UHGV virus genome: UHGV-0061455
Length of the DNA: 19,997 nt
DNA from: a virus
Direction: 5' to 3' (one strand)
The notes beneath the pieces are model-generated. The model searched no databases, had not been told where the DNA came from, and saw only the letters and a program-made list of their open reading frames with translations. Shown here one piece after another: positions 323 to 19,997 of this stretch. Numbering within the stretch: the stretch's first letter is position 1; each line of letters starts with the position of its first letter. The position numbers were made by a program, and so were the translations under genes.

Positions 323-324
323 GA

Positions 325-5900: not shown

Positions 5901-5910
5901 GGAGTTAATC

Positions 5911-6093
5911 ATGGCAGCAGCAAAAGCAACTCAGGCGCAGTTACAGGAACCTCTGCGCACAACTAACATCGTAGGCAAGGACTTGTACCAACTGCTTACT
6001 CAGCCTCAAGGCAAGGAGCAGGTAGGTCCGTCTATTGATGCGCTTATCTCGGCCCTGGAAGCCGCTGTAGCAGCAGTTAAAGCAGCAGCCTAA
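5911..6093 (+). CDS. Hypothetical small protein (Ala/Gln-rich, helical)
   Basis: ATG 5911 preceded by GGAG immediately after the upstream stop. The longer track ORF from 5812 overlaps the preceding gene and lacks an RBS, so the internal start is preferred. Confidence 0.4.
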   Translation: MAAAKATQAQLQEPLRTTNIVGKDLYQLLTQPQGKEQVGPSIDALISALEAAVAAVKAAA

Positions 6094-6506: not shown

Positions 6507-6738
6507 CGGGGAAACTATCACCCGTGTAGGAACAAACGTATCTGTCGCTACTATGGGTGGCGGATGGATGGCAGACGTAATGTCTTGGAACTGGGGTACA
6601 ATCTCGTTCATCGTCGGTACGGTAATGGCTGTACTGACCTTCGCATGGAACGCGTACTACAAGCACAAAGAGTATAAGCTCAAGGAAAAGGCACTGGAGA
6701 AGGGGCTGGCATACTATAAGCATAAGCAACAAGGTTAA
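6490..6738 (+). CDS. Putative holin (possibly pinholin-like)
   Basis: 82 aa from ATG 6490. One strongly hydrophobic helix GTISFIVGTVMAVLTFAW preceded by a weaker hydrophobic segment, then a highly charged Lys-rich C-terminus. Sits immediately upstream of the endolysin. Confidence 0.45.
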   Translation: MSLPINGETITRVGTNVSVATMGGGWMADVMSWNWGTISFIVGTVMAVLTFAWNAYYKHKEYKLKEKALEKGLAYYKHKQQG

Positions 6739-6784
6739 AGCTGCACTGGCAGGGGCAACCCTGCTGGGCGGCAGTATCACTGCT

Positions 6785-7258
6785 GTGATTCAGCATAACG
6801 AGGGGTTGTCCCTGACGGCCTACAAAGATTCAGCCGGTGTACCTACCATCTGTTATGGTGAGACTAAAGGCGTACAGATAGGCCAGAAACGCACGCTAAC
6901 GCAATGTCAGGAGCAACTGATACGTTCGGCAGAGGGGCACGCTAAGGCGCTTGACGGCCTTCCTATGACGCTTACAGACGTACAGTTACTTGGCGCTCTG
7001 GACCTGACCTATAACATCGGTATCTCTGGATTCAAGAACAGTACAGTAAAGCGCAAGCTAATGCAAGGCGATACTAAAGGTGCCGCTCAGGCTGTCTTAG
7101 CGTGGCGCTACATCACCGTTAAAGGTAAGAAGTACGACTGTAGTATAGAAGGTAATAAGGTCTGCTACGGGCTCTGGAAGCGCCGTTTGTGGGAATCCCA
7201 AGCTATTGGCAACGAATTTAAATCAGTGCAAGCAGCATTAGCTGCTATTCCTAAGTAA
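6785..7258 (+). CDS. Endolysin, T4-lysozyme-like muramidase (glycoside hydrolase family 24), probably SAR-type with an N-terminal extension upstream of the listed start
   Basis: EGLSLTAYKDSAGVPTICYGET has the E-x8-D-x5-T catalytic spacing of T4/lambda/P22 lysozymes. The frame is open upstream to 6638 and encodes KVKAALAGATLLGGSITAVI, a Gly/Ala-rich hydrophobic stretch resembling a signal-arrest-release domain, but with no ATG/GTG/TTG in frame. Coordinates given are the conservative GTG start. Confidence 0.8.
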   Translation: MIQHNEGLSLTAYKDSAGVPTICYGETKGVQIGQKRTLTQCQEQLIRSAEGHAKALDGLPMTLTDVQLLGALDLTYNIGISGFKNSTVKRKLMQGDTKGAAQAVLAWRYITVKGKKYDCSIEGNKVCYGLWKRRLWESQAIGNEFKSVQAALAAIPK

Positions 7259-7267
7259 GGATTAGGT

Positions 7268-9013: not shown

Positions 9014-9466
9014 GTAATAAACCTGTGGGTGCCTGAGGGTGCCCTGGGATTTCCTGGGATTGCACGTGTAAACGTACACCTAGAAAATATTATACTCACG
9101 CGAGGCCCTCCCTCACCCGACCAAGGCGTCAATCCCCCCATGGGGTAGGCCTCTGGGAATTCACAGGGTGGGGTAGTGGGAGAGGGTGCTAATCCCTCTG
9201 CGTATACTGTGTGCTGCGCTAGACGCTCTGTATCGCTCTGTATCGCTCTGTATCGCTCTGTGAGTCTATAGCAGTACCTAAGGGACACTTCGTGTCTCTA
9301 CGCTGTACAAGGCAAGCCTCTGTGCTTCTCTGTGCTCTCTCTTATGAGGGCAGGAGGGGGCGCATGCTTGCCTATTTTTATGCACGCTGTGCAGTACTGT
9401 ATGCCGCTGCTATACCTCTGTGTATGCGCAGTAGCTTACCTCTTTTGCCTCTAGGCTATGCAATGC
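9014..9466. other. Non-coding genome-terminus or terminal-repeat-like region
   Basis: About 450 nt with no credible ORF between the last late gene and the first early promoter. Contains tandem short repeats, CTCTGT-type motifs, a CCCCATGGGG palindrome and C-rich/G-rich inverted arms. T7-like genomes have short repeat arrays next to their terminal repeats. Confidence 0.5.
9224..9261. repeat. Tandem repeat, about 3.8 copies of 10-bp unit CGCTCTGTAT
   Basis: Read directly: cgctctgtat cgctctgtat cgctctgtat cgctctgt. Related CTCTGTG motifs recur at about 9318-9345 and 9415. Confidence 0.9.
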
Positions 9467-9495
9467 TTGACGCAGGGTTAGCGCTGTGATATGCT
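9467..9495 (+). promoter_or_regulatory. Candidate sigma70-type early promoter P0 (TTGACG-N17-TATGCT)
   Basis: -35 TTGACG at 9467-9472, 17-nt spacer, -10 TATGCT at 9490-9495; about 100 nt upstream of the first early gene. Weaker -10 than the other promoters. Confidence 0.35.
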
Positions 9496-9601
9496 GATAG
9501 TAGTTGTAAGGTTCTTTAACAATCCGGGGAATCAACGACGCAGTGCAGCGAGTCACTACTCAACACTATATAGTAGGGGATATTGGAATACACTATGAAG
9601 G

Positions 9602-10345
9602 ATGCATACAATGCAAGAACGTAATCTTAAGAAGAGTAGTAAGCGTATAGACGGTAAGGTACGCAGTGGTTGGATAGATGTAGATACAGGGGAGTTCTTC
9701 AACACTAAAGCAGAGGCGAATGTAATGCGTAAGATGCGTAGTGATAAGAAGCCTGTAGCTAGGCGTAATGTAATAGCAGTAGCTGATGCAACGCTTAGAA
9801 TGAAGGATGTAGTGCTAGCTTGGGCATTCAGTAATGATTTCCAGCTTAAACATTACAACTTAATGAATGAGTACATGGAAGGGCGCAGTAAGGGCTATGC
9901 AGGGCTTAAGACTATGCAGCGTGCTGGTACTGTACTGGAAGCAGTTAACGTAGCTACAGCGTGGTACAAGCAGTATGACGCTAGGAAGGATAAACGCTAT
10001 CTGGATGATGCACTCTACACCAATCCTACATGGTGTGAGGATAGGGATTGGGTAGACTCTGAGCCATTGGATGAGCTTAGCTTAGAGATAAATGCATTAC
10101 TGGACTCTAGACATGCTGAGTTCTTAGCGAATGAGCCTAAACCTGAGCTTACTGCTAAGGAGTATGAGCGTAGTATACTCAGTAGGGATAAAGCTACTTA
10201 TATACACAGTAAGGGTGCTGTAACAGTGTATGAGGAGAAGCAGGAGAGTAAGAAAGGTTTAACTGAGCATCAACCTAGATGGTCACAGGATGAGTTGTTT
10301 GATTGGACGCAGCGTAACACTACACAACAATACATTAGGGGATAA
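9602..10345 (+). CDS. Early protein, function unknown
   Basis: 247-aa ORF, visibly more A+T-rich than the late genes. ATG 9611 has better RBS spacing (AAGGA 9 nt upstream) than ATG 9602, so the true start may be 9611. Confidence 0.6.
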   Translation: MHTMQERNLKKSSKRIDGKVRSGWIDVDTGEFFNTKAEANVMRKMRSDKKPVARRNVIAVADATLRMKDVVLAWAFSNDFQLKHYNLMNEYMEGRSKGYAGLKTMQRAGTVLEAVNVATAWYKQYDARKDKRYLDDALYTNPTWCEDRDWVDSEPLDELSLEINALLDSRHAEFLANEPKPELTAKEYERSILSRDKATYIHSKGAVTVYEEKQESKKGLTEHQPRWSQDELFDWTQRNTTQQYIRG

Positions 10346-10355
10346 GAGAATACAC

Positions 10356-10532
10356 ATGACTAAAGCAAACTGGCAGGGCTACAAGACACATGCTGATATG
10401 TGGGAGTTTCATAAGCGTATTAATGAGTATGCGTATCAGCGGTTAAAGGCAGAGCATGAGTTAGCAGAGCTAAGGCTCAAGGCGTACAGGGAGGGTAGTT
10501 TTGAATCTGAAGGGGATTGGAAGAGGTATTAA
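10356..10532 (+). CDS. Hypothetical small early protein
   Basis: 58 aa from ATG 10356 with AAGAG RBS-like sequence; same frame as track ORF 10290-10532, whose 5' part overlaps the upstream gene. Confidence 0.4.
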   Translation: MTKANWQGYKTHADMWEFHKRINEYAYQRLKAEHELAELRLKAYREGSFESEGDWKRY

Positions 10533-10576
10533 TGTGACAGTAACTTACCTCTTTTGAAATTAATTTAAAATAGTTG

Positions 10577-10605
10577 TTGACTTCCCTGATTTAAGCAGTT
10601 ATAGT
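10577..10605 (+). promoter_or_regulatory. Strong sigma70-type early promoter P1 (TTGACT-N17-TATAGT with A+T-rich upstream element)
   Basis: -35 TTGACT 10577-10582, exact 17-nt spacer, -10 TATAGT 10600-10605, preceded by aaattaatttaaaatagttg. Same architecture as P2 and P3a. Confidence 0.7.
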
Positions 10606-10629
10606 TCAAGCATAGTAAGGAGATGCAAA

Positions 10630-10770
10630 GGCAGCTGAAGGGGTAGCGGATAACCAAGACTACCCAGCCTAAAAGGACTTGAAGGACGTCGGTAACTGCA
10701 CCGCCTCTGCATCGAGGGAAGCAATGAGCTGCTAAGAGACAAAAGCAGCGCTAAGATGAATGTTCTTAGT
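10630..10770 (+). ncRNA. Conserved structured leader element, copy R1 of 3
   Basis: Begins about 18 nt after the predicted P1 start site. Conserved blocks GGCAGCTGAAGG, ATAACCAAGAC, AGCCTA-AAGGA, CTAAGAGACAA and GCTAAG are shared with R2 and R3. Hairpin A: GGGTAG (10641-10646) pairs with CTACCC (10660-10665) around a 13-nt loop. Hairpin C: CTAAG (10751-10755) pairs with CTTAG (10765-10769). The shared reading frame is broken by a stop in this copy. Confidence 0.5.
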
Positions 10771-10812
10771 TAAGCGTTACATCCTGTAGCGCATACTTAA
10801 GAGGATTTAAAT

Positions 10813-11127
10813 ATGAAGGCTTTAACTATCGTAATCTCCACGCTACTGATGACTGGATGCGCTACTAAGCAGTACCCACAAGCTACTGACCTTACTTTAC
10901 AGGAGCAGTCAGTGTTTGAATGCAAGGACGTACAGGTAGAATTAGCTAAGGCTTACAGTCAGAAGCTGAAGATTGATGAGACGGCAGGCTTCGATGCCGA
11001 AACTATCAGCGGATTCATGCTGGACTTTGGTATTGGTAATGCAATGGCTAAATCTAAGGCGTACGCTCAGGTTAACGGGCGTATCTCTAAACTGGAAGAA
11101 CTGAAGAAGGTGAGATGCAATGCGTAA
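10813..11127 (+). CDS. Early lipoprotein (signal peptide II with LMTGC lipobox)
   Basis: 104 aa; N-terminus MKALTIVISTLLMTGC is a classical lipoprotein signal. First gene after P1 and R1, with AAGAGG RBS. Confidence 0.7.
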   Translation: MKALTIVISTLLMTGCATKQYPQATDLTLQEQSVFECKDVQVELAKAYSQKLKIDETAGFDAETISGFMLDFGIGNAMAKSKAYAQVNGRISKLEELKKVRCNA

Positions 11128-11371
11128 CTTTAAATCTGAATTAAAAATCTGGTTCTCCGCTGCTGCTGTAGCTACTGCGCTGATGTTCTCCGTTAAGGGC
11201 GCTCAGGCTGCCCCTAACAGCATAGAACTGTGTAATTGGGGTAAGTGGGCGTGGCAGCAGAACATTAAGCTAGACGCGCTTGTAGACGCCTTAAACAGCG
11301 TTGAGGCTATGCCCTACGATGATAAGCTGATTGTTGTGCGCTGCTTTGTTGAATCTATGGAGACTATGTAA
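11120..11371 (+). CDS. Early secreted/periplasmic small protein (Sec signal peptide)
   Basis: 83 aa; N-terminus MRNFKSELKIWFSAAAVATALMFSVKGAQA-AP has a basic n-region, hydrophobic core and AQA cleavage motif. Start overlaps the end of the lipoprotein gene, suggesting translational coupling. Confidence 0.6.
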   Translation: MRNFKSELKIWFSAAAVATALMFSVKGAQAAPNSIELCNWGKWAWQQNIKLDALVDALNSVEAMPYDDKLIVVRCFVESMETM

Positions 11372-11547
11372 TGTTTGATTTAACTACTACGAACGAAGTG
11401 CAGACGATGACTAGCCGTGAGATTGCCGAGTTAACTGGTAAGATGCACACCCATGTAATTGCTGATATTCGTAAGATGCTGGCAGAGATTGGAGGAGAAA
11501 CGAAATTCCGCTCGTCCTACATATCGGCTCAAAATAAATTAAAATAA
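11371..11547 (+). CDS. Short Rha-like protein (phage regulatory protein Rha N-terminal DNA-binding domain only)
   Basis: 58-aa ORF below the track's size cutoff; ATG overlaps the upstream stop (TAATG). TSREIAELTGKMHTHVIADIRKM matches the signature N-terminus of Rha/antirepressor-type proteins. Its last codons are the A+T-rich upstream element of P2. Confidence 0.5.
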   Translation: MFDLTTTNEVQTMTSREIAELTGKMHTHVIADIRKMLAEIGGETKFRSSYISAQNKLK

Positions 11548-11550
11548 GTG

Positions 11551-11579
11551 TTGACGACGTACAGGGAAGTGCGTATAGT
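11551..11579 (+). promoter_or_regulatory. Strong sigma70-type early promoter P2 (TTGACG-N17-TATAGT)
   Basis: -35 TTGACG 11551-11556, 17-nt spacer, -10 TATAGT 11574-11579, preceded by aaaataaattaaaataagtg. Confidence 0.7.
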
Positions 11580-11636
11580 TCATTACATCGGGAGGCGAGA
11601 GGCACTAAGCACCTCCTCCCGGAAAGGAGAAGTTAA

Positions 11637-11775
11637 GGCAGCTGAAGGTAACGATGATAGCCAAGACGTTACAGCCTACAAGGAAGTGAACGAAATCCGA
11701 ACCCTACGGTCCCTGCAATCGGGAGAACTGGATGAGAAGCTAAGAGACAAGAGCTTCGCTAAGTGACTACTTAGT
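11637..11775 (+). ncRNA. Conserved structured leader element, copy R2 of 3
   Basis: Same conserved blocks as R1 and R3. Hairpin A: GTAACG (11648-11653) pairs with CGTTAC (11667-11672) around a 13-nt loop atgatagccaaga. Hairpin C: CTAAG (11759-11763) pairs with CTTAG (11770-11774). The 43 nt between element and ATG, including the AAGAGG RBS, are homologous to those after R1. Confidence 0.5.
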
Positions 11776-11817
11776 TAAGCGTCGTACAGTACGGCGCAGA
11801 ATTAAGAGGTTAAAGAA

Positions 11818-12237
11818 ATGAAAGCTACCCGTTCAAACTGGAAAGAAGCTAAAGGCCTGGTTAAGGTAACAACTAAAAGTATGCCTTGCCTTAAGACAGA
11901 AGCAGCACAAGACGAAGGTGCAGTTGCAATGGAACGTAAGCACGCCATGGAGCTTGCAGCGTACAACTCTGAAGCACGCCGTGCAGAGCTTGTAGAGCTG
12001 GCTAACAAGCCTGAAGGTACTGAAGCACGTAAGGTACTGCGTAAGATGCAGACCTTCACTACTAAGCCTCAGTCAATCCCCAGCAATGATTACAGCATGA
12101 AGCTCAGCCAGCGTCGTGCTAAATCTGAAGAATACAACGAGCGTGGCGAGCGTACTTGCCGCCCTTCAAGCAAGACCTGTCAGCGCATTAACAGTTATTT
12201 CCGCAGTAAGTCCTCTACACCTAAAGGAGTTAAATGA
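11818..12237 (+). CDS. Hypothetical early protein (basic, Lys/Arg-rich)
   Basis: 139-aa ORF with AAGAGG RBS; first gene after P2 and R2. Its first three codons match those of the lipoprotein gene after R1. Confidence 0.6.
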   Translation: MKATRSNWKEAKGLVKVTTKSMPCLKTEAAQDEGAVAMERKHAMELAAYNSEARRAELVELANKPEGTEARKVLRKMQTFTTKPQSIPSNDYSMKLSQRRAKSEEYNERGERTCRPSSKTCQRINSYFRSKSSTPKGVK

Positions 12238-12329
12238 TGGTGGGTCATACTAATCAATCTACTGAATGGGAACGTCAGCGTGAAGCTGAGATGTTTAAAC
12301 TGTATAAGGAGTTAACGAAATGGCACTGA
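12237..12329 (+). CDS. Possible small ORF (30 aa)
   Basis: AAGGAG RBS 7 nt upstream of ATG 12237; overlaps the start of the next gene. Small and unsupported beyond RBS and packing. Confidence 0.25.
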   Translation: MVGHTNQSTEWERQREAEMFKLYKELTKWH

Positions 12330-12643
12330 CCAAAGCCGCAGGCGACGTAGGTACTTATACCACAGCAGAGCAATCCGGTTGTTGTAAGGAAAATACTCAG
12401 TACAACGCCTGGAGGCCTCATTATGGGACACGCCAACCTGTTCCGGATGGGACTATGGTATTTATCCGGTATCGCTACGGGGAGCAGCCGAAGACTAGTG
12501 TAGACGCAAAAAATCGATTGTGGGTTTGGGATGGTACATACTCAGACATCGTGGAGTACAAGATTGACATACAGGAATGCAAGCATGAGCAGGTTGTGTA
12601 CGATGTGGATGACTTCCAGACACGATCGAAATGCGGGCGTTAG
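12320..12643 (+). CDS. Hypothetical early protein
   Basis: 107-aa ORF, AAGGAG RBS 8 nt upstream of ATG. Confidence 0.6.
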   Translation: MALTKAAGDVGTYTTAEQSGCCKENTQYNAWRPHYGTRQPVPDGTMVFIRYRYGEQPKTSVDAKNRLWVWDGTYSDIVEYKIDIQECKHEQVVYDVDDFQTRSKCGR

Positions 12644-12678
12644 CATCAGCAAACTTACTTCTACAAGAGAACGCAGAA

Positions 12679-12807
12679 ATGACACAGCATCAGAAAGCTC
12701 AGCAGTTGGCTAAGAACTACCACACTTTCCTGATTAACAACGAATGCAATGTGCGTTTCGCCTGGAACGCAGCAATGGCCCTTTTCAAACTGGAGATGCA
12801 GAAATGA
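12679..12807 (+). CDS. Possible small ORF (42 aa)
   Basis: ATG 12679; stop overlaps the start of the next gene (ATGA). Fills a gap in a tightly packed early operon. Confidence 0.25.
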   Translation: MTQHQKAQQLAKNYHTFLINNECNVRFAWNAAMALFKLEMQK

Positions 12808-12980
12808 TTAACCTGAACCCTGAACTGATTCTGATGCGTAATGATGAAGTAACTGTTGAGACGCTAGCCAAAGAATATGACGCTAGAGAACAGTTGATTG
12901 AGTACTACAAAGGTAAAGCTGAACGTGTAGGCCTCAGCTTCGAAAGCTACATTAAACGCTTCGGCATTACCTTACGCTAA
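12804..12980 (+). CDS. Hypothetical small early protein
   Basis: 58 aa from ATG 12804 with GGAG upstream; same frame as track ORF 12744-12980, whose upstream part lacks an RBS. Confidence 0.45.
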   Translation: MINLNPELILMRNDEVTVETLAKEYDAREQLIEYYKGKAERVGLSFESYIKRFGITLR

Positions 12981-12990
12981 GGGGGCAGAC

Positions 12991-13320
12991 ATGTTGCCAG
13001 TAAATGAAGTAATTGAACAGTACTGGCAGATGCTGGAGAATCAAAGCAGCTTAGGCCGTAAGACACTGCGAGATATTCCAGCAGAGCTACGCAAGCTTTG
13101 CCCTTTGAAGTGGTGTACTGATTGGCAGTACCGTGAAGGAATGCGCTTGCTGGTAGGTTATTACAAGTACGACGCTGAGAGGGCCTCAGAGGTCCTACAG
13201 CGTATGGAATTCGATGTAGTAAGAGAGTTGCAGCAGCTTGGATATGAAGGCGCTAAGCAGGCGTTTAAGGCTGCTTGCATTAATCATTATGAATGGCAGA
13301 CATCTTACAGAGGTATCTAA
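12991..13320 (+). CDS. Hypothetical early protein
   Basis: 109-aa ORF, AAGGGGG RBS. Confidence 0.6.
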   Translation: MLPVNEVIEQYWQMLENQSSLGRKTLRDIPAELRKLCPLKWCTDWQYREGMRLLVGYYKYDAERASEVLQRMEFDVVRELQQLGYEGAKQAFKAACINHYEWQTSYRGI

Positions 13321-13526
13321 TGAAAGTAAAAGCTATTAAAATTGAAGACTCGTCGGCTTTAGATTACCTGACTGAAGGTAAACTCTATGAGGTCGTATAT
13401 TGCTCCAATCGGAAATTTGGTGATTTAGTCCTAGATATAATTGACGATTTAGGCGAGATGATATCAATACTAGTTAGTGATGGGCCAAGCTGTGCTCACG
13501 GTGTTAAATGGGAGATTGTGGAATGA
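13320..13526 (+). CDS. Hypothetical small protein
   Basis: 68 aa from ATG 13320, which overlaps the upstream stop; same frame as track ORF 13293-13526. Confidence 0.45.
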   Translation: MKVKAIKIEDSSALDYLTEGKLYEVVYCSNRKFGDLVLDIIDDLGEMISILVSDGPSCAHGVKWEIVE

Positions 13527-13768
13527 ACTTCGTAGAACACAACCTAAAGATTTCAGATATAAAGTCTCAGAACTCGGCTATCTATAGGCTTGACCAGATG
13601 CATGGGGACAGTACTAATCCTAACGTAAGTACTGTATTCGTAACTAATGATGATATGCTGGAGCTAGTTGAATTATGGCTGAAGAACTGTGGCTACGGCG
13701 AGCGAGACAGTTGGGTGTTGGACAGACTGAAAGGTTTAGGTGTTGTGGTAGAACAGCAGCAGCTGTAA
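13523..13768 (+). CDS. Hypothetical small protein
   Basis: 81 aa from ATG 13523 (GTGGAATGA overlap with upstream stop). The 3' end overlaps the predicted primase start by about 94 nt, so one of the two boundaries is uncertain. Confidence 0.4.
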   Translation: MNFVEHNLKISDIKSQNSAIYRLDQMHGDSTNPNVSTVFVTNDDMLELVELWLKNCGYGERDSWVLDRLKGLGVVVEQQQL

Positions 13769-14463
13769 TAAGAAACGAGCCAGATAAATGGACATGCTCT
13801 TGCTTTAGATGTAAAGGTTATCACGTGGAGCGTAAGCAGTACGCTCAATTAGTAGTACCTGAAGTACTGGGGCGTGAGTTGCCCGCCCCTCAGGACCTGA
13901 AGCGCCTGCCGGAACTGGATGCAGGGCTTCAGCAGTTCCTTTACGGATTCTTAATATCAAAAGGTATCTGGCCTGATATGGCTGGAGATGTTTATTACTC
14001 AGAACAATACAAGAGGTTAGTGTGGAAATTATCAACGGGCAGTTACATAGCGAGAGCATTGCACGAGTACCAGTTTCCGAAGTGGGTGATGCTGGGGAAG
14101 TCGTTACAATGGGCGCAGCTTGGGAATACTGGAACGATAACAGTACTGACAGAGGATTATCTCTCGGCGCTGAAGGTTCAGCAGGTCTCGGAGAAGTATT
14201 CTTCACAGACTGTTACGGCAATAGCATTACTGGGGACTCGCTTAGCTCTTGGGCTTAAGGCTCAGCTGATACGAGAAGGGAAGCCTATAGTGTGCATGTT
14301 GGACGGAGACAAGGCAGGTTACGCTGGAACTGTTCAAATTCACAAACAGTTACGTCCATTTTTAAGGGTAGGCGACTTCCACATTGATGGGCTAGACCCC
14401 AAGGACATGAAGTGTAGTCAAATAATAGAAGGTATAGCAGATGAATTGGGAAGAGTATTATAA
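13675..14463 (+). CDS. DNA primase (zinc-binding region plus TOPRIM domain; T7 gp4 primase-like, separate from the helicase)
   Basis: 262 aa. Cys cluster RFRCCGRTAAAVIRNEPDKWTCSCFRC near the N-terminus; VCMLDGDKAGYAGT resembles the TOPRIM acidic motif (T7 MFDMDEAGRKA). Start is uncertain because of the upstream overlap. Confidence 0.65.
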   Translation: MAEELWLRRARQLGVGQTERFRCCGRTAAAVIRNEPDKWTCSCFRCKGYHVERKQYAQLVVPEVLGRELPAPQDLKRLPELDAGLQQFLYGFLISKGIWPDMAGDVYYSEQYKRLVWKLSTGSYIARALHEYQFPKWVMLGKSLQWAQLGNTGTITVLTEDYLSALKVQQVSEKYSSQTVTAIALLGTRLALGLKAQLIREGKPIVCMLDGDKAGYAGTVQIHKQLRPFLRVGDFHIDGLDPKDMKCSQIIEGIADELGRVL

Positions 14464-14586
14464 GTACGATGAAGAGGTTCCCTCAGGACTTGTTAGAATC
14501 AAAGCTGTAAAGGGTACTAGAGTGGGTACAGAAGACTAAGGTTGAGTTACATGGTGAATTTGCCAACTTAAAGTAAGGGGCATTGA

Positions 14587-15861
14587 ATGGATTTTGTAAT
14601 AGCTAGGGCTATGTGTGAACGTAAGGTGCATGACCGCTTACGGGACAGTATCCCTAAGTCACTGCTTGCGCCGGATACGGTAGCACTGCTAGGATGGATT
14701 GAACTGTATTATGCAACCTACCCTGACTCTAACGAAGTACGCTTTGATGTAATGGATACGCTCCTTAATATGCGTGGGGCGCATTTACAGAAGGAGCAGA
14801 TGGATATCCTTAAGCATATGCTTAAGACCGTTCAGGGCGTTCCTGATGAGGCGGTAGCTGGTACAGTGCGTACGCTGAACGAGCTGGCCTACTCGGGTGA
14901 GATGGCTGCACTGGTCAGTAAGTATCAGGCTGGGGAAGAGATTGACTTTGTACAGGAAGCTAAAGCGCTTGAGCGCAAGTACTCAGGCGTAGCAGCAGCC
15001 AATGATTCACTACTTAAGTGGGAAGATGGGGGTGTAGACGATATTCTCGCGGCTACTGATGAGTCTGGTGGTCTTAAGCTTACTGTGTTCAGTGAGTTGG
15101 CTAGAAACATTCGCGGCTTACGGGGTGGTGATTGTGTTGCTGTTGCTGCCCCTGTTGATGCTGGTAAAACTTCTCTCCTAGCTGCTATAGTAGTTAACCT
15201 AGCGGAACAGATGCATGAGCAGAAGGAGATTTACGCAGAGCGTCCTATCCTGTGGTTGGTGAACGAGTCATTGGCCAAGCGCACTGTACCGCGCATCTAT
15301 CAAGCAGCTACTGGACTTACCTTGCAGCAGATTGTTGAGCAGCATAAAGAAGGTAAGTTTGCTGATAAGTACCTGAAGAAGGTTGGGACTTGGGATAAGA
15401 TTCGCGTTAAGGATGCGCACAGTATGAGCCTAGGTCAAATCTCTACGCTATTGGAAGAGATGCGTCCGGCTGTGCTGGTGATTGACATGGTCGCTAATAT
15501 AAAGGGAGGTAATGCCGAGTCAGAGTATCAGGCATTGGAACAGAAGTGGCAGCAGCTGCGTATGCTGGGATGTGAATATGATTGCGTTATCTTAGGTACG
15601 ATTCAGTTATCTGTTGAAGGTTACGATTGCATGTACCCGCCGCTGACAGCATTGAAAGGAAGTAAGATAGGTGTTCAAGGTGCTTTGGACTTATGCATCA
15701 TGATGGGACGTATGAATGTTAACGATCGTCCTGACATGGCTAACGTACGCGGGATTAGTACACCTAAGAATAAGTTAGGTAAGTCTGGTAGTACTGCATA
15801 TGTGCAGTTCCAAGTGGAGTTTAACGGCGGTACGTGCCAATTCAGTGAAGGTCTAGCGTAA
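14587..15861 (+). CDS. Replicative DNA helicase (DnaB/gp4B-like)
   Basis: 424 aa; AAGGGG RBS. Walker A-like AAPVDAGKTS, Walker B-like hydrophobic stretch ending in D (AVLVIDMVA), and position directly after the primase. Confidence 0.8.
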   Translation: MDFVIARAMCERKVHDRLRDSIPKSLLAPDTVALLGWIELYYATYPDSNEVRFDVMDTLLNMRGAHLQKEQMDILKHMLKTVQGVPDEAVAGTVRTLNELAYSGEMAALVSKYQAGEEIDFVQEAKALERKYSGVAAANDSLLKWEDGGVDDILAATDESGGLKLTVFSELARNIRGLRGGDCVAVAAPVDAGKTSLLAAIVVNLAEQMHEQKEIYAERPILWLVNESLAKRTVPRIYQAATGLTLQQIVEQHKEGKFADKYLKKVGTWDKIRVKDAHSMSLGQISTLLEEMRPAVLVIDMVANIKGGNAESEYQALEQKWQQLRMLGCEYDCVILGTIQLSVEGYDCMYPPLTALKGSKIGVQGALDLCIMMGRMNVNDRPDMANVRGISTPKNKLGKSGSTAYVQFQVEFNGGTCQFSEGLA

Positions 15862-15916
15862 TAGCTAAGCCGTCTTCTTAGGAGGGCGGCTTGTCAATTA
15901 ACTAGGAGGATATTAA

Positions 15917-16381
15917 ATGAGCACTTGCATAGATCATGGTAAGTGTAAAAGCTTATCACCTGAAGGGTATTTATTAGTTACACGTCCTGAGTATTTCAGC
16001 AGAGGTTGTAAGACTAGAAGCATTGCTAAGCATAGGCTAGTACTTCTTACAAAGCTGGGTATAAACTGGTGGGATGAAGAGGCTAAGGATTTAGTAGCGC
16101 TCCACACTTGCGATAATCCTAGATGTATTAATCCCGAGCATCTGGTAGCAGGAACCCGTGGGGACAATAACAGAGATAGGGCAGAAAGAGGGAGAAGTGC
16201 TAAGAAGGTTCCTAGTAAGTGGAAGCTTACCCCTACTGATTGCAAAGCTATAATTAACTCTTATAACAAGAAAGATAGGGAGAATAACAAAAGCGCCTTA
16301 TCAGCACGTTTCAAAGTAGACCGTAAGATAATCACTCAAGTTTTAGAAGGAACATATAGTGGCCTCGATTTTAATCTTTGA
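15917..16381 (+). CDS. HNH homing endonuclease
   Basis: 154 aa; GGAGG RBS. HTCDNPRCINPEHLVAGTRGDNNRD matches the HNH_3-type motif. Gene is visibly more A+T-rich than the flanking helicase and polymerase genes. Confidence 0.8.
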   Translation: MSTCIDHGKCKSLSPEGYLLVTRPEYFSRGCKTRSIAKHRLVLLTKLGINWWDEEAKDLVALHTCDNPRCINPEHLVAGTRGDNNRDRAERGRSAKKVPSKWKLTPTDCKAIINSYNKKDRENNKSALSARFKVDRKIITQVLEGTYSGLDFNL

Positions 16382-17504
16382 TATTGAAACTCAAAACGTG
16401 CCTTACTTTGGAGGGGTAGCTACTCCGTACTGCCCTGAGAACTACATCGTAGAATCAGGGTTCAGGATTGATAGAACTAATCCAGATGGTACAGTAACGT
16501 GCAGTGATGTAGGCAGCGTACGTTATGAATCAAGAGAAGAGTTCTTGCAGGCAGACCCTAAGCAGTGGTTACCTATTCAGGAAGATACATGGTTAATCGT
16601 GGCCCATAACGCTGCGTATGAGATTAGCTGGGCACTGACGTTTGCTAGGGAAGAGTTTGAGGCATTCCTGAAAAGAGGTGGACGTGTATTTGATACAATG
16701 CAGGGGCAATACATCGCCTCTGACTTCCAAGACCTTTACCCGTCACTGGATGAGACGGCCCCCAAGTATGGTGGCAGTCACAAGGTTGATGGTGTTAAGC
16801 TGCTGTGGCAGCAGGGAGTATTAACAGCAGATATTGACCCAGTACTACTGCATGAGTACCTAACAGGGCCGGAAGGAGACATCGTCAATACTGCACTGTG
16901 CTTCTACGGGCAATGTGCATTGTTCGCTGAGCGTGGGCAGATGCCTATGGTCTGGGAAAGGATGGATAGTGTAGTAGCCCTAGCCTACTGTGAGTTTAAT
17001 GGTGTGTACGTAGACATGCCTACAGCCAGAGCTAACCAGAAGGAGCAGGAGGACGCTATCGCAGTACTGAAGCAGACTCTGCAAGGCTTCTTGCCGGAAC
17101 TACCTGAAGGCTTTGAGTTCAACTGGAACAGTGGATACCACATGTCCGCACTGGTGTATGGCGGTATGGTTAAGTACAAGTGCAAGGTCCCGTATGACCC
17201 GCCGAAGTATGTGAAGAAGGAAGTGCAGGATGGGGTATATAAGTCAGGCCGTAACAAGGGCATGCCTAAGTACATTAAAGTAGACACAGACGAGCAGGCT
17301 ATGAAGTGGGGCGAGCGTTTGTATAAGTTCGAAGGACTTGTATGTATTAAGGACCTGCCGGCAGTACTACAAGAGAAGTATGCGGAGCGAGGAGAGTTCC
17401 GAGGTGCTCAGACATTAGCAGACGGTACAGCTGTATTCAGTACAGGTACGGATGCTATGAAAGAACTGGCTAACTATTTTATTGGGATTGAAGACGATGA
17501 GTAA
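16359..17504 (+). CDS. DNA polymerase (family A), N-terminal fragment with 3'-5' exonuclease domain
   Basis: 381 aa from GTG 16359 (GAAGGA RBS 7 nt upstream), overlapping the HNH gene end. Exo I motif ILIFDIETQ and Exo II VAHNAAYEISWAL align with T7 gp5 (IVSDIEANA, VFHNGHKYDVPAL). ORF stops where the methyltransferase gene begins. Confidence 0.8.
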   Translation: MASILIFDIETQNVPYFGGVATPYCPENYIVESGFRIDRTNPDGTVTCSDVGSVRYESREEFLQADPKQWLPIQEDTWLIVAHNAAYEISWALTFAREEFEAFLKRGGRVFDTMQGQYIASDFQDLYPSLDETAPKYGGSHKVDGVKLLWQQGVLTADIDPVLLHEYLTGPEGDIVNTALCFYGQCALFAERGQMPMVWERMDSVVALAYCEFNGVYVDMPTARANQKEQEDAIAVLKQTLQGFLPELPEGFEFNWNSGYHMSALVYGGMVKYKCKVPYDPPKYVKKEVQDGVYKSGRNKGMPKYIKVDTDEQAMKWGERLYKFEGLVCIKDLPAVLQEKYAERGEFRGAQTLADGTAVFSTGTDAMKELANYFIGIEDDE

Positions 17505-18204
17505 TTTTATAAACATTATGCACGGTGACTGTCTGGAGTTGATGAAGGAAATTCCAGCTAAAAGTGTAGATATGGTACTTTGCGACTTACCTTATGGGAC
17601 TACTCAATGTAAATGGGATGTGATTATAGATTTTAAAATGTTATGGGAAAACTACGGTAGGGTAGTTAAGGATACGGGCGCTATAGTCCTAACGGCGGCG
17701 CAGCCGTTCACAAGTACGCTGGTAGTAAGTAATATTAAGAACTTCAAATATCAATGGGTTTGGAAGAAATCAAGACCTACAGGACATCTTAATGCTAAGA
17801 AGCAACCGTTACGGAACACTGAAGACATTCTCGTCTTCTATAAGTCGCAGTGTACGTATAATCCTCAAGGTACACGAGAAACAGACGTCATGGTGTCACG
17901 TACAAACAGGGGCAATTACGGGGAATGTTCAAAAACCACACGGCAGACGGTAACCGGTTACCCTACTACGATTCTGGAATTTGCATCTGAAGTAGGGGAA
18001 CACCCAACACAAAAGCCAGTCGCACTTATGGAGTATCTAATTCGTACATATACAAACGAAGGTGATACTGTTCTAGACAATTGCATGGGCAGTGGTACTA
18101 CGGGGGTAGCAGCTAAGAATACACTCCGTAATTTTATAGGTATCGAAAAGGATGCTACATACTACGATATAGCATTCAATCGCATTCATAATTCAAACGT
18201 GTAA
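17497..18204 (+). CDS. DNA methyltransferase (N6-adenine/N4-cytosine, beta-class)
   Basis: 235 aa from ATG 17497 (overlaps the Pol-N stop). N-terminus MSNFINIMHGDCLELMKEIPAKSVDMVLCDLPYG carries a DLPY variant of motif IV (DPPY). HPTQKP and DNCMGSGTTGVAAK...NFIGIEKD (motif I) are family signatures. Visibly A+T-rich versus neighbours. Confidence 0.85.
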   Translation: MSNFINIMHGDCLELMKEIPAKSVDMVLCDLPYGTTQCKWDVIIDFKMLWENYGRVVKDTGAIVLTAAQPFTSTLVVSNIKNFKYQWVWKKSRPTGHLNAKKQPLRNTEDILVFYKSQCTYNPQGTRETDVMVSRTNRGNYGECSKTTRQTVTGYPTTILEFASEVGEHPTQKPVALMEYLIRTYTNEGDTVLDNCMGSGTTGVAAKNTLRNFIGIEKDATYYDIAFNRIHNSNV

Positions 18205-18211
18205 GGTATGT

Positions 18212-19363
18212 ATGACTACTCAAGCGTCTTCATTCTTTAAAGCATACAACGAACTAACCCTGCGCCAGAAGGACTTAGGCTTCTATGAGGTTAAGGACTA
18301 CAACAAGGATGGTAGCCTGCGTAAGACTACGGGGATGCTTCCTTATGTAATACCTCAGAAGGAAGACGGTAGTGGCATCATTCATCACCGCCTGAATCAC
18401 TGTTCAACTACAACCGGGAGGCTGTCAGCGTCTAACCCGAATATGCAGCAGCTGCCGCGTGAGTCTAAGGTTAAGCAGATTCTTCGCAGTCGCTATGGTG
18501 AGCAGGGCATGATTGCACAGTGCGACTACTCAGCTATGGAAGTTGTAATGGGCTGTGTAATTACCGGTGATAAGAAGCTCCTGTCCCTGCTTGAAGATGG
18601 TACAGACATGCACTGCTACCGCTTAGCATTCCAAGAGGGTATGCCATATGAAGAAGTCTACGAGCTTTGCCATAACCCGGATGCACTGAACCATAAAGAA
18701 TGGAAGAAGAAACGAACAGCAATCAAAACGTTCAGCTTCGCAGCGCAGTACGGAGCTTCCGCTAAAGGATTGGCGTTCGCCTCTGGTGCCAGCCTGAAGG
18801 ATGCTGAGAAGTTCTTAGCTAACGAAGAAGCCCTGTTCCCTGAGTCTATTAAGTATCGCGATGTAATCGCAGCAGAAGTAAACCGCACTGCATTACTGGA
18901 ACCTATCCGTCGTGAGCAGTCAGATGACGGTAGCTGGCGTATCTACCGTGAGGGATACTTCACTGCACCTTGCGGTACTCGCTACCGCTTCCGTCAGAAA
19001 CCTGTGTGGCGTGAAGGGAAGCAGGTCATGGACTTCAAGCCTACAGAGATGGCGAACTATCCGTTTCAGGGCTCAGGTTCCCTGCTTATGCTGATTGCGA
19101 TGGGTATGATTCTGCGTGCAGGGTTAGCGGATAACTGGATGGACGGTAAGTGGTGCATCCTTGCCACTGTGCATGATGCCGTCTATGCAGATTGTGCAGA
19201 CGAAGAGACAGCTAATAAGGTAGGGCAACTTATCAAGCGCTGTATGGAAGGGGCACGCGACCGTATGCTAGCACTGTGGCCTGAGTTTGGTATCCTTAAA
19301 GATGTAAAGTTCCCAGCAGAAGCCGGGCTTGGTAAATCCTTCAAGGAAGAGTACACGATTTAA
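18212..19363 (+). CDS. DNA polymerase (family A), C-terminal fragment with polymerase domain
   Basis: 383 aa. TTTGRLSASNPNMQQLP (O-helix-preceding motif), DYSAMEV (motif A), RTAIKTFSFAAQYGAS (motif B) and VHDAV (motif C) match Pol I/T7 gp5. Confidence 0.85.
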   Translation: MTTQASSFFKAYNELTLRQKDLGFYEVKDYNKDGSLRKTTGMLPYVIPQKEDGSGIIHHRLNHCSTTTGRLSASNPNMQQLPRESKVKQILRSRYGEQGMIAQCDYSAMEVVMGCVITGDKKLLSLLEDGTDMHCYRLAFQEGMPYEEVYELCHNPDALNHKEWKKKRTAIKTFSFAAQYGASAKGLAFASGASLKDAEKFLANEEALFPESIKYRDVIAAEVNRTALLEPIRREQSDDGSWRIYREGYFTAPCGTRYRFRQKPVWREGKQVMDFKPTEMANYPFQGSGSLLMLIAMGMILRAGLADNWMDGKWCILATVHDAVYADCADEETANKVGQLIKRCMEGARDRMLALWPEFGILKDVKFPAEAGLGKSFKEEYTI

Positions 19364-19375
19364 TTAAATTAGTTG

Positions 19376-19404
19376 TTGACATGGCAAGGACGCCTAGGTA
19401 TAGT
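19376..19404 (+). promoter_or_regulatory. Strong sigma70-type promoter P3a (TTGACA-N17-TATAGT)
   Basis: -35 TTGACA 19376-19381, 17-nt spacer, -10 TATAGT 19399-19404, preceded by taattaaattagttg; immediately after the DNA polymerase stop. Confidence 0.7.
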
Positions 19405-19491
19405 AAGCACATCAACGAGGCACGGAGCCTACCAGAAACGGTCAGTAGACGCAGCGTCATACGAAGAGCTGATAAGTTGATAAGAAACAGA

Positions 19492-19520
19492 TTGACAGGC
19501 AGTAACGAAGTAGATAATAT
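19492..19520 (+). promoter_or_regulatory. Candidate tandem promoter P3b (TTGACA-N17-TAATAT)
   Basis: -35 TTGACA 19492-19497, 17-nt spacer, -10 TAATAT 19515-19520. Predicted start lies about 15 nt upstream of R3, matching the P1-to-R1 spacing. Confidence 0.4.
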
Positions 19521-19541
19521 ACACATCAAGGAAGCAGTACT

Positions 19542-19682
19542 GGCAACTGAAGGTAGCGCTGATAACCAAGACGCTATAGCCAACAAGGAAGTGAACGCCC
19601 TCGGCTACGTCGCCGTCCCTGTATCGGGAGAAGACATGAGAGTCTAGGAGAAATAAGACTCGCTAACTGAAGTAGAGTTAGT
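19542..19682 (+). ncRNA. Conserved structured leader element, copy R3 of 3
   Basis: Same conserved blocks (GGCAACTGAAGG, ATAACCAAGAC, AGCCAACAAGGAAGTGAACG). Hairpin A: GTAGCG (19553-19558) pairs with CGCTAT (19572-19577, one G-U) around a 13-nt loop. Hairpin C: CTAAC (19663-19667) pairs with GTTAG (19677-19681), a compensatory change relative to R1 and R2. Confidence 0.5.
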
Positions 19683-19742
19683 GATGCAGTCTTAAGAGAT
19701 TGCAACCTTAACTTTATTCACAGTATTAACAGGAGGTAGTAA

Positions 19743-19925: not shown

Positions 19926-19997
19926 GTGTAGCCCTGCGTAGGAAGGGTTTTATTATACCACTTAACGCTCAATTTGTACAGCAATAAATTGATATTT

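What the first reader, a model, noticed from the sequence alone, without database searches (positions are those of the whole stretch)
9467..19520. Family of near-consensus host-type promoters sharing an A+T-rich upstream element
P1 (10577-10605), P2 (11551-11579) and P3a (19376-19404) all read TTGAC(N)-17 nt-TATAGT preceded by aaatta(g/a)t(t)gTTGAC; weaker candidates P0 and P3b exist. P3a/P3b lie after the DNA polymerase gene, deep inside the replication region, suggesting host RNA polymerase also drives a mid-genome operon. The shared -10 TATAGT and upstream element, together with the downstream R elements, indicate duplication of a whole promoter-leader module, including the RBS and first three codons in the case of P1 and P2.
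Basis: seen in the sequence. Interest (0 to 1): 0.45.

Follow-up and report, generated by a model that had tools for sequence, protein, structure and literature searches.

The report
Phage early promoters with switch leaders
The promoters are real relatives of the classic T7 early promoters, and the more interesting part is that each is fused to an undescribed, folded leader RNA that appears able to hide or expose the ribosome-binding site of the first gene.

Summary
TTGAC-N18-TATAGT occurs three times against 0.01 expected, always behind the same A+T-rich, UP-like element. All three sites are conserved in five related phiKMV-like (Slopekvirinae) coliphages.

P3a/P3b are homologues of T7 A1 and A2/A3. 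P0 is conserved and is followed by a perfect Nus-factor boxA (GTTCTTTAACA), as in T7. The promoters themselves are therefore ordinary.

The "R elements" are not passive duplicates. They are a roughly 180-230 nt structured leader RNA with seven covarying helices. It has no Rfam family and no match in E. coli genomes. It also occurs in Koutsourovirus phages.

Its 3' core looks bistable. The strand UCUUAGUU pairs either with CGCUAAGA (helix H5, ribosome site free) or with AAUUAAGAGG, the Shine-Dalgarno region of the first gene (site closed). Both helices are kept by compensatory changes, including one three-way covariation, and their predicted energies are close.

My best reading is a portable cassette of promoter, leader switch and translation start. 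The trigger is unknown: RNase III, a protein, a ribosome on a mini-ORF, or folding kinetics. Nothing here has been tested experimentally.

The parts
9467..9495 (+). P0: TTGACG-17-TATGCT with a TG extended -10. It is the leftmost early promoter, just inside the genome end.
   Evidence: Scan. Conserved block in 5 phages (alignment A3).
9511..9521 (+). boxA (GTTCTTTAACA), the NusB/NusE loading site, in the P0 leader.
   Evidence: Perfect match to the consensus GYTCTTTAANA (PMC5725501). It is the only site in the window within 1 mismatch of GCTCTTTAACAA. Relatives carry GCTCTTTAACAATCAGG at the same place. T7 has GCTCTTTAACAATCTGG downstream of A3.
10521..10556 (+). Weak terminator-like hairpin (AAGAGGTA...TACCTCTTTTG) ending just upstream of the P1 UP-like element.
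   Evidence: Fold at -11.5 kcal/mol. Read from the sequence.
10556..10605 (+). P1: A+T-rich UP-like element (10556-10576) plus TTGACT-17-TATAGT (10577-10605).
   Evidence: (family D4). Conserved in relatives.
10612..10812 (+). Leader R1, running from the inferred transcription start to the start codon at 10813. Helices: H1 10629-32/10667-70; H2 10641-46/10660-65; H3 10690-93/10700-03; H4 10704-07/10714-17; hpB 10728-32/10745-49; H5 10750-56/10764-70; hpC 10774-79/10787-92.
   Evidence: RNAalifold and pair counts. Covariance model hit of 125.7 bits.
10764..10804 (+). R1 switch region. The strand TCTTAGTT (10764-10771) pairs either with 10750-10756 (H5) or with the tail ACTTAAGA (10795-10802), which overlaps the Shine-Dalgarno GAGG (10801-10804).
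   Evidence: Predicted energies: H5 state -38.4, alternative state -37.6 kcal/mol.
10724..10735 (+). Mini-ORF ATG AGC TGC TAA, preceded by a Shine-Dalgarno-like GAGGG (the 3' strand of H4). Its codons 2-3 form the 5' strand of hpB.
   Evidence: Read from the sequences. AUGAG is present in 15 of 16 aligned leaders. Its significance is untested.
11530..11579 (+). P2: UP-like element plus TTGACG-17-TATAGT (11551-11579).
11586..11817 (+). Leader R2. It has an extra 5' hairpin (11589-11620). Then H1 11636-39/11674-77; H2 11648-53/11667-72; mini-ORF 11732-11743; H5 11758-64/11769-75; alternative helix 11770-76/11800-06; Shine-Dalgarno region 11804-11809; ATG 11818.
   Evidence: 108.1 bits; H5 state -34.9 against alternative state -35.2 kcal/mol.
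19355..19404 (+). P3a: UP-like element plus TTGACA-17-TATAGT. It resembles T7 A1: the transcript starts ATCAACGAGGCACGGAGCC, against T7 A1 ATCGAGAGGGACACGG.
   Evidence: The same leader start occurs in phiKDA1.
19411..19491 (+). Leader between P3a and P3b, homologous to the T7 A1-A2 interval.
   Evidence: Local alignment to T7, z = 5.0, 0/300 shuffles. Conserved out to phiKDA1 with a few compensatory pairs.
19492..19520 (+). P3b: TTGACA-17-TAATAT, of the T7 A2/A3 type, sharing the spacer motif GTAACGAAGTA. It lies 116 bp downstream of P3a.
   Evidence: The same promoter type occurs in 174 phage records, mostly Klebsiella Drulisvirus, and is annotated 'promoter' in SU552A.
19527..19742 (+). Leader R3. 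H1 19541-44/19579-82; H2 19553-58/19572-77; mini-ORF 19636-19647; hpB 19640-44/19657-61; H5 19662-68/19676-82; hairpin 19686-91/19698-703; alternative helix 19677-83/19706-12, extending outward to 19672/19718. Then TTAACTTTA, Shine-Dalgarno AGGAGG (19731-36) and ATG 19743.
   Evidence: (94.6 bits).

Best explanation
The window comes from a phiKMV-like (Slopekvirinae) coliphage. It runs from the late genes across the genome end into the early and DNA-replication genes. In these phages the host RNA polymerase must express everything up to the phage polymerase gene.

Five sigma-70 promoters do this work. P0 has a canonical boxA, which would load the Nus factors for antitermination, as in T7. P1, P2 and the tandem P3a/P3b each combine an A+T-rich UP-like element with a near-consensus core. 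P3a/P3b are homologues of T7 A1 and A2/A3 that have been placed after the DNA polymerase gene.

P1, P2 and P3b are each fused to a structured leader RNA of about 180-230 nt, a family with no Rfam entry. It has a variable 5' domain and a conserved 3' core that ends in the ribosome-binding site of the first gene.

The core has two mutually exclusive folds. In one, UCUUAGUU pairs with CGCUAAGA (H5), leaving the Shine-Dalgarno region free. In the other, UCUUAGUU pairs with AAUUAAGAGG, closing a 20-25 bp irregular hairpin over the Shine-Dalgarno region. In R3 the closed partner is an upstream UUAACUUUA segment instead.

I infer that the leader gates translation of the first cistron of each host-polymerase transcript, and probably its processing too.

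Shown here: the motifs, their conservation, the homology to T7, the boxA match, the RNA helices and the two alternative pairings. Inferred: promoter activity, that the two folds really alternate in the cell, and what shifts the balance.
For: Promoters: motif statistics, conservation in relatives, and homology of the P3 region to T7 A1-leader/A2 (z = 5.0, 0/300 shuffles; T7 sequence).

boxA: exact match to GYTCTTTAANA, conserved in relatives. The T7 boxA downstream of the early promoters is documented (PMC3709561).

Transcription scheme of phiKMV-like phages: PMC10914365 and PMC6834552.

RNA structure:
- The three window copies alone give 36 predicted pairs, 15 of them compensatory.
- The 16-sequence core alignment is 98.6% paired, against 30-45% when partners are slid; covariation score 0.543 against 0.02-0.20; 0/500 shuffles reach it.
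- The 5' helices H1-H4 also covary.
- A covariance model finds exactly the expected copies at 77-130 bits and nothing else.

Switch:
- The alternative helix plus hpC is 95.5% paired, against 37-48% when slid; 0/500 shuffles.
- Columns 88/107/145 covary three ways: G,C,G in 13 sequences; C,G,C in 2; G,U,A in 1.
- P64441 P1 keeps the alternative helix through two double changes while its Shine-Dalgarno sequence changes to AAAGG.
- R2-type leaders keep H5 through an A-U to U-A swap.
- In 13 of 16 leaders the two states lie within about 4.5 kcal/mol.

The genes downstream of the leader differ between phages, so the leader is a general device and not gene-specific.
Against: There are no experimental data: no mapped transcription starts, no structure probing, no reporter assays. 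The central base pairs of both helices are invariant, so support for each rests on a few compensatory events at the helix ends, and the sequences are related. The energies are predictions. In two leaders the closed form is favoured by 8-9.5 kcal/mol, and in window R3 the open form by 6.4. In R3 the closed helix covers a segment about 13 nt upstream of the Shine-Dalgarno sequence, not the sequence itself. No trigger has been identified. The 5' domain differs between phages (W, P and phiKDA1 types), and some leaders in relatives lack the core altogether (PAS7 P2, KKP 3828, SU552A), so the switch is not indispensable for early expression.
Confidence: 0.55

Rival explanations
1. The closed hairpin is mainly an RNase III processing site, the counterpart of T7 R0.3. 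RNase III would cut or bind the 20-25 bp irregular hairpin just upstream of the first gene. That would trim the leader and free the ribosome-binding site, as happens for T7 gene 0.3 and the lambda N and cIII mRNAs. This could coexist with the switch and could be its trigger.
For: The predicted closed form has a lower stem of 7-12 bp, a small internal loop and an upper stem of 6-9 bp, directly at the translation start. T7 has the same order: promoters, boxA, R0.3 hairpin, Shine-Dalgarno sequence. The promoters are homologous to those of T7. There is a 15/16 nt match, TAGCGGATAAC-CAAG, between the R1 H2 loop and the T7 R0.3 region (z = 2.6, 7/300 shuffles).
Against: That 15/16 match sits in a different structural context and is only marginal statistically. 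A processing site alone would not explain why H5, the competing helix, is preserved by compensatory changes. Cleavage cannot be predicted from sequence.
Confidence: 0.25
2. The leader acts on the transcribing host RNA polymerase, as a processive antitermination or anti-Rho element in the manner of HK022 put RNA. That would let transcripts from P1-P3 cover the long early and middle region, and help pull the genome into the cell.
For: The leader lies directly behind the promoters and does not depend on the downstream gene. Host polymerase must transcribe a long stretch in phiKMV-like phages. boxA at P0 shows that processivity is under selection in this phage. Terminator-like hairpins follow the first units.
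Against: The leaders contain no boxA. They show no resemblance to any known antitermination RNA and give no Rfam hit. The conserved core ends exactly at the ribosome-binding site and pairs with it, which points to translation. The downstream terminator-like hairpins are weak.
Confidence: 0.12
3. The leader is a riboswitch-like or protein-responsive sensor. The variable 5' domain would bind a metabolite, a host protein or an early phage protein, and set the H5/closed balance, for instance to shut off early-gene translation later in infection.
For: The architecture is two-part, with a structured 5' domain and a bistable 3' platform. Loop and linker sequences are invariant (CUGAAGG, GAUAACCAAGAC, AAGGAAGUGAACG). 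GAUAA and UAAGA words are about 4-fold enriched in leaders (the sequences are not independent).
Against: It is the platform that is conserved and the putative sensor that varies, which is the reverse of known riboswitches. The downstream genes are unrelated and not metabolic. No candidate RNA-binding protein was recognised among the early genes. GGA motifs (CsrA sites) are not clearly enriched.
Confidence: 0.12
4. The leader is only a stabilising, insulating 5' UTR: folded RNA that protects against RNases and Rho and presents a good ribosome-binding site. On this view the closed fold is a by-product of similar UAAG-containing words. The repeated cassettes would then matter mainly at the DNA level, as recombination points for swapping early genes, like the PeSL cassettes of T4-type phages.
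For: The genes behind the leader differ between close relatives, and a Rha-like gene is cut short exactly at P2. The words CUAAG, UUAAG and CUUAG recur, so some alternative pairing is expected by default.
Against: The three-way covariation, and the two double compensatory changes that follow an altered Shine-Dalgarno sequence in P64441 P1, are hard to explain without selection on the closed helix. Seven helices and invariant single-stranded motifs are more than stabilisation needs.
Confidence: 0.15

Closest known systems
T7 early control region (E. coli promoters A1, A2, A3, boxA, RNase III site R0.3, gene 0.3)
   Same: Strong tandem sigma-70 promoters about 120 bp apart (116 bp here; 128 and 124 bp in T7). 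P3b and its upstream leader align with T7 A2 (z = 5.0). P3a starts like A1. boxA is nearly identical (GCTCTTTAACAATC). A structured leader abuts the first gene's ribosome-binding site.
   Different: In this window the A1/A2-like pair lies after the DNA polymerase gene and not at the left end. boxA follows a separate promoter, P0. The leader core (AUGAG-hpB-CGCUAAG...CUUAGUUAAG-hpC-AAUUAAGAGG) has no counterpart in T7. Each promoter has its own copy of the leader.
Lambda cIII mRNA alternative structures, and the lambda N leader (stated from established knowledge, not tested here)
   Same: A phage early mRNA with two alternative folds, one of which occludes the translation start. RNase III shifts or resolves the balance.
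   Different: There is no sequence relationship. Here the element is a long multi-helix leader repeated three times per genome and linked to the promoter. RNase III involvement is only a hypothesis.
rrn P1/P2 promoters with UP element and boxA antitermination
   Same: An A+T-rich UP-like element directly upstream of -35, tandem promoters about 118 bp apart, and a boxA matching the rrn consensus.
   Different: The leaders show no significant similarity to the rrnB leader (z < 1). The discriminator is A+T-rich where rrn P1 is G+C-rich. No boxB or boxC was recognised.
PeSL mobile regulatory cassettes of T4-type phages (early promoter plus stem-loop; stated from established knowledge)
   Same: Repeated cassettes of promoter plus RNA structure flank variable small early genes, and gene content behind them differs between close relatives.
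   Different: PeSLs are short: a promoter plus a terminator hairpin. Here the RNA part is a 180-230 nt covarying leader tied to the ribosome-binding site.
HK022 put RNA (cis-acting antitermination RNA behind PL and PR; stated from established knowledge)
   Same: Paralogous structured RNAs placed directly downstream of the early promoters of one phage, acting without regard to the downstream genes.
   Different: put is about 70 nt with two stem-loops and is unrelated to the ribosome-binding site. No similarity was found, and no effect on termination has been shown here.

Membership tests
Sigma-70 promoter with UP element | -35 and -10 hexamers close to TTGACA/TATAAT, 17 +/- 1 bp apart | tested here: met
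   P3a 11/12; P1, P2 and P3b 10/12; P0 9/12 with TG. All have a 17 bp spacer. The motif occurs 3 times against 0.01 expected.
Sigma-70 promoter with UP element | A+T-rich element at about -40 to -60 | tested here: met
   aaattaatttaaaatagttg, aaataaattaaaataagtg and atttaattaaattagttg lie directly upstream of -35. They resemble the UP consensus and the rrnB P1 UP element, judged by eye only.
Sigma-70 promoter with UP element | Transcription starts there with host holoenzyme | not testable with these tools
   Needs 5' end mapping or in vitro transcription.
T7-group early promoters (A1, A2/A3) | Sequence homology extending beyond the two hexamers | tested here: met
   P3 region against T7 563-625: z = 5.0, 0/300 shuffles. 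P3a initial transcript is ATCAACGAGGCACGG against ATCGAGAGGGACACGG. P1 and P2 show no significant extra similarity (z = 0.2-2.6).
T7-group early promoters (A1, A2/A3) | Clustered at the left genome end | tested here: not met
   P3a/P3b follow the DNA polymerase gene. The homologous pair is at the left end in phiKDA1 and SU552A.
boxA (NusB/NusE site) | Match to GYTCTTTAANA in a 5' leader downstream of a promoter | tested here: met
   Window 9511-9521 is GTTCTTTAACA, 15 nt after the P0 -10 hexamer. Conserved in relatives.
boxA (NusB/NusE site) | Binds NusB/NusE and confers resistance to termination | not testable with these tools
   Needs binding assays and nus mutant hosts.
Any Rfam family (riboswitches, ribozymes, leaders, sRNAs) | Covariance-model score at or near the gathering threshold | tested here: not met
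   No hit at gathering threshold in the window or in three relatives, apart from group I introns elsewhere in L122. Only noise at E up to 10.
Riboswitch | Conserved aptamer, alternative expression platform, ligand-related downstream genes | tested here: inconclusive
   An alternative platform is present. The 5' domain is not conserved across phages. The downstream genes are unrelated. No ligand is known.
T7-type RNase III processing site | Irregular hairpin of about 20 bp or more, with an internal loop, between or ahead of genes | tested here: inconclusive
   The closed-state hairpin has this shape, but cleavage cannot be predicted. Similarity to T7 R0.3 is limited to 15/16 nt in a different structural context.
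put-like, nut-like or EAR-like antitermination RNA | Promoter-proximal RNA that makes the polymerase resistant to terminators | not tested
   Only the position fits. There is no boxA in the leaders and no model of put was available to compare.

The most novel reading that the evidence does not exclude
The leader may be a new class of phage riboregulator. A conserved bistable translation platform would be driven by interchangeable sensor domains, of which at least three architectures exist (W, P and phiKDA1 types). These would read a host or phage signal, such as a protein, a metabolite, ribosome load through the mini-ORF, or RNase III, to time the expression of every host-polymerase transcription unit. 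Alternatively, or in addition, the same RNA may act on the elongating polymerase.
Probability: 0.2. Interest if true: 0.75.

Novelty: new variant of a known kind. Interest (0 to 1): 0.5.

Why it matters
The promoters add little. They are relatives of the T7 A promoters, and a boxA behind early promoters is already known from T7. Their value is that they show the T7 early control region is ancient and modular across Autographivirales, and that it can be redeployed in mid-genome where the host polymerase has to do more of the work.

The leader is the useful part. It is an undescribed structured RNA family with strong covariation, three copies per genome, and comparative evidence for two competing folds at the ribosome-binding site. 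If the switch is real, it is a compact, portable and testable device for controlling early phage gene expression after transcription. It could also serve as a part for engineered phages and expression systems.

Tried and rejected
- **Rfam.** Searched at gathering and permissive thresholds on the window and three relatives. Nothing relevant was found.
- **Mimicry of the rrn leader.** Short words such as ACCAAG and GUGAACG looked similar by eye. Local alignment to rrnB was no better than shuffles (z < 1), and BLAST of the leaders against 5,426 E. coli genomes found nothing. Rejected.
- **boxA inside the R leaders.** Only P0 has one. The GYUCUUAG words in some copies form a paired, covarying strand. 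Rejected.
- **CsrA sponge.** GGA counts were 5-6 against about 4 expected. Not supported.
- **Hammerhead-like CUGAAGG/AUGAG cores.** The required GAAA and A9 positions are absent, and Rfam gave no hit. Rejected.
- **An N-like protein from the P0 operon.** No family hit for the 247 aa and 58 aa products. Left open.
- **Loose DNA patterns in IMG/VR.** These returned mostly chance hits. Stricter patterns in viral, metagenome and GTDB collections found only a few related phage contigs and no bacterial genome.
- **Mini-ORF as the trigger.** Short (3-codon) and long (15-codon) versions would have opposite effects on the switch. Left as an observation.
- **Similarity to T7 R0.3.** 15/16 nt, marginal. 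Kept only as a lead.

Full report
**What the window is.** The nearest annotated relatives are the Escherichia phages P64441 and PAS7 (Autographivirales, Slopekvirinae). Several unannotated records are about 89% identical. The gene order shows that the window runs from the late genes (tail fibre, terminase, lysis genes, tailspike; 1-9013) across the genome end. A conserved block there matches the start of the phiKDA1 terminal repeat. The window then continues into small early genes, primase, helicase and a split DNA polymerase that ends at 19363. The finding therefore covers the early region and the end of the replication module.

**Checking the observation.**
- TTGAC-N18-TATAGT occurs three times, all on the + strand, against 0.01 expected.
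- The upstream AAWTARKTGTTGAC occurs at the same three sites against 0.04 expected.
- A generic promoter scan is not enriched overall, but these sites are its best + strand hits.
- The same three promoters, with the same A+T-rich element, are present in five related phages.
- P0 is a conserved block in five phages.
- The A+T-rich element has the position and composition of a UP element; compare rrnB P1.
- The claim that P1 and P2 share their first three codons does not hold in the orthologous modules of relatives.

**Relation to known promoters.** Reading the T7 left end settled the ancestry.
- The P3a-P3b interval and P3b align with the T7 A1 leader and the A2 promoter. Window: CTGATAAGTTGATAAGAAACAGATTGACAGGCAGTAACGAAGTAGATAATATACACATC. 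T7: CTGATAAGTCGCACGAAAAACAGGTATTGACAACATGAAGTAACATGCAGTAAGATACAAATC. The alignment has z = 5.0, and 0 of 300 shuffles reach it.
- The P3a transcript begins ATCAACGAGGCACGG. In phiKDA1 it begins ATCGAGAGGCAAGG, and T7 A1 begins ATCGAGAGGGACACGG.
- The P3a-P3b spacing of 116 bp matches the 124-128 bp spacing of A1-A2-A3.
- The P3b type, including its spacer, is conserved in 174 phage records, mostly Klebsiella Drulisvirus. There it lies about 1 kb from the left end and is annotated as a promoter.

So the pair that is normally at the left end has a copy behind the DNA polymerase gene in this clade. That fits the transcription scheme reported for phiKMV-like phages: host promoters at the left end, and phage-polymerase promoters only downstream of the late-placed polymerase gene (PMC10914365; PMC6834552). 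The host enzyme must therefore cover the whole early and replication region.

**P0 and boxA.** Fifteen bases after the P0 -10 hexamer lies GTTCTTTAACA. This is a perfect match to the boxA consensus GYTCTTTAANA (PMC5725501), and it is the only close boxA match in the window. Relatives carry GCTCTTTAACAATCAGG at the same place. T7 has GCTCTTTAACAATCTGG downstream of A3, where a boxA antitermination element is documented (PMC3709561). This part is a new member of a known kind.

**The R elements are a structured RNA.**
- The three window copies alone give a consensus fold of 36 pairs, 15 of them with compensatory changes.
- More copies were collected from OR844702, an IMG/VR contig, PAS7, P64441, L126 and the Koutsourovirus phages phiKDA1, SDFMU_EhYP and Entb_48.
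- Two parts emerged. The 5' domain is variable: W type in the window, P type in PAS7 and P64441, and a third type in phiKDA1. The 3' core is conserved: H4, AUGAG, hairpin hpB, helix H5 (CGCUAAG/CUUAGU), UUAAG, hairpin hpC, then AAUUAAGAGG and the start codon.
- On 16 sequences the three core helices are 98.6% paired, against 30-45% when the partners are slid. The covariation score is 0.543 against 0.02-0.20, and no shuffle reaches it.
- H1-H4 of the W domain also covary.
- A covariance model recovers exactly these copies (77-130 bits). It finds nothing in KKP 3828, Buco, SU552A or SDFMU_Pec.
- Collection scans found only a handful of related phage contigs and no bacterial genome.
- Rfam has no matching family, and E. 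coli genomes have no similar sequence.

**The switch.** Unconstrained folding of the core rarely predicted H5. Instead, the 3' strand of H5 (UCUUAGUU) paired with the tail AAUUAAGAG(G), which is the Shine-Dalgarno region of the first gene. This extends hpC into a hairpin of 20-25 bp.
- When each state is forced, the two lie within about 4.5 kcal/mol in 13 of 16 leaders. R1 gives -38.4 against -37.6 and R2 gives -34.9 against -35.2.
- The comparative data support both helices. The alternative helix plus hpC is 95.5% paired, against 37-48% when slid, and 0 of 500 shuffles reach it.
- Column 107 covaries with both of its partners. Columns 88, 107 and 145 read G,C,G in 13 sequences; C,G,C in the R3-type leaders; and G,U,A in P64441 P1.
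- In P64441 P1 the Shine-Dalgarno region has changed to AAAGG, and the opposing strand has changed with it (U-A to C-G and C-G to U-A). H5 is weakened there.
- In R2-type leaders H5 keeps its end pair through an A-U to U-A swap, at the cost of the alternative helix.
- In R3-type leaders the old tail has become part of a new hairpin. A new downstream segment, CCUUAAC(UUUAUU) at 19706-19718, supplies the alternative partner. It overlaps a UUAACUUUA word that recalls the T7 gene 10 enhancer (a comparison from memory, not tested).

The near invariance of CUAAG, CUUAG and UUAAG over phages whose polymerases are only about 57% identical is what one expects of strands that must each fit two partners.

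**How it probably works.** H5 can form as soon as it is transcribed, which leaves the ribosome site open on the nascent RNA. The closed hairpin can form only after the tail emerges.
- What sets the balance is unknown.
- The closed hairpin has the size and place of a T7 RNase III site. T7 has the same order: promoters, boxA, R0.3, Shine-Dalgarno sequence.
- A mini-ORF lies at hpB: a Shine-Dalgarno-like GAGGG or GGGAG, 5-8 nt, AUG, then mostly two codons and a stop. It occurs in 15 of 16 leaders. In a few leaders it is 15 codons long, and the two lengths would act on the switch differently.
- The downstream genes are unrelated between phages: a lipoprotein here, other small proteins elsewhere. 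The leader is therefore a general device attached to the promoter.
- I put 0.55 on the cassette-with-translational-switch reading. RNase III processing is the likeliest partner mechanism. Antitermination, a sensor function, and a purely protective or recombinational role are the rivals.

**Limits.** Everything about activity is inferred. The central pairs of both helices never vary, the sequences are related, and the energies are predictions. Some leaders in relatives lack the core entirely.

**Verdict.** The promoter interpretation is essentially right but ordinary: relatives of T7 A1-A3, with a boxA as in T7. The added value is an undescribed leader RNA family with comparative evidence for a bistable ribosome-binding-site switch.

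Noticed in passing
window 19952-19980 (- strand) and 19930-19958 (+ strand): A near-consensus sigma-70 promoter points backwards towards P3: TGTACA-17-TATAAT here, and a perfect TTGACA-17-TATAAT in the close relative L125. It overlaps a terminator-like hairpin on the + strand. Its transcript would be antisense to the 60-aa ORF and to R3. A very similar promoter-plus-hairpin cassette lies in sense orientation between the internal virion protein genes in PAS7, OR844702 and P64441.
   Followed up: partly
window 16359-19363: The DNA polymerase is split into two ORFs (16359-17504 and 18212-19363), with an N6/N4 DNA methylase gene (17482-18204, Pfam PF01555, E = 2e-29) between them. In OR844702 the C-terminal part matches in two pieces spanning a region that holds a group I intron (3356-4042). 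PAS7 has two adjacent polymerase ORFs with nothing between them.
   Followed up: partly
window 9224-9261: Tandem 10-bp repeat CGCTCTGTAT (about four copies) in the non-coding region near the inferred genome end, upstream of P0. It is variable or absent in relatives.
   Followed up: no
window 9435-9447 and 10544-10556: The word CTTACCTCTTTTG lies about 20 nt upstream of the -35 of both P0 and P1. At P0 it is invariant in five phages. At P1 it is the 3' half of a terminator-like hairpin.
   Followed up: partly
window 11371-11547: A 58-aa ORF with the N-terminal part of a Rha/Ant-type regulator domain (Pfam PF09669) ends exactly in the P2 UP-like element. It shares only its first 15 residues with the 251-aa DNA-binding protein of PAS7. 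This suggests the promoter-leader cassette marks a recombination junction.
   Followed up: partly
window 10724-10735, 11732-11743, 19636-19647: Each leader holds a three-codon mini-ORF (ATG AGC TGC TAA; ATG AGA AGC TAA; ATG AGA GTC TAG) with a correctly spaced Shine-Dalgarno-like sequence. Most use the rare AGA codon. Relatives have TAA, TAG or TGA at the same place, or a 15-codon version.
   Followed up: partly
window 19708-19736: The 60-aa ORF behind R3 has a very strong translation start: TTAACTTTA (like the T7 gene 10 'epsilon' enhancer, recalled from memory) followed by AGGAGG. The first part is the alternative pairing partner of the R3 switch strand.
   Followed up: partly
GenBank records OR847174, OR848645, OR847472, OR849530 ('Listeria phage') and OR850875 ('Salmonella phage'): Records labelled as Listeria or Salmonella phages give the same identity, E-value and bit scores as the E. 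coli phage record OR844702 for this region. All belong to one set of unannotated records (OR844702 is flagged UNVERIFIED_ORG). The host labels look unreliable.
   Followed up: no
L144 (Enterobacter phage Entb_48) 119-130: In this Koutsourovirus-like phage a perfect boxA (GCTCTTTAACAATCC) follows the A1-type leader and precedes the A2-type promoter and the core-containing leader. boxA and the R-type leader can therefore sit on one transcript.
   Followed up: no
L146 (metagenome contig UMAM01049034.1): A 4.4 kb metagenome contig carries two leaders with covariance-model scores identical to those of window R1 and R2. It is probably the same phage or a near-identical one.
   Followed up: no
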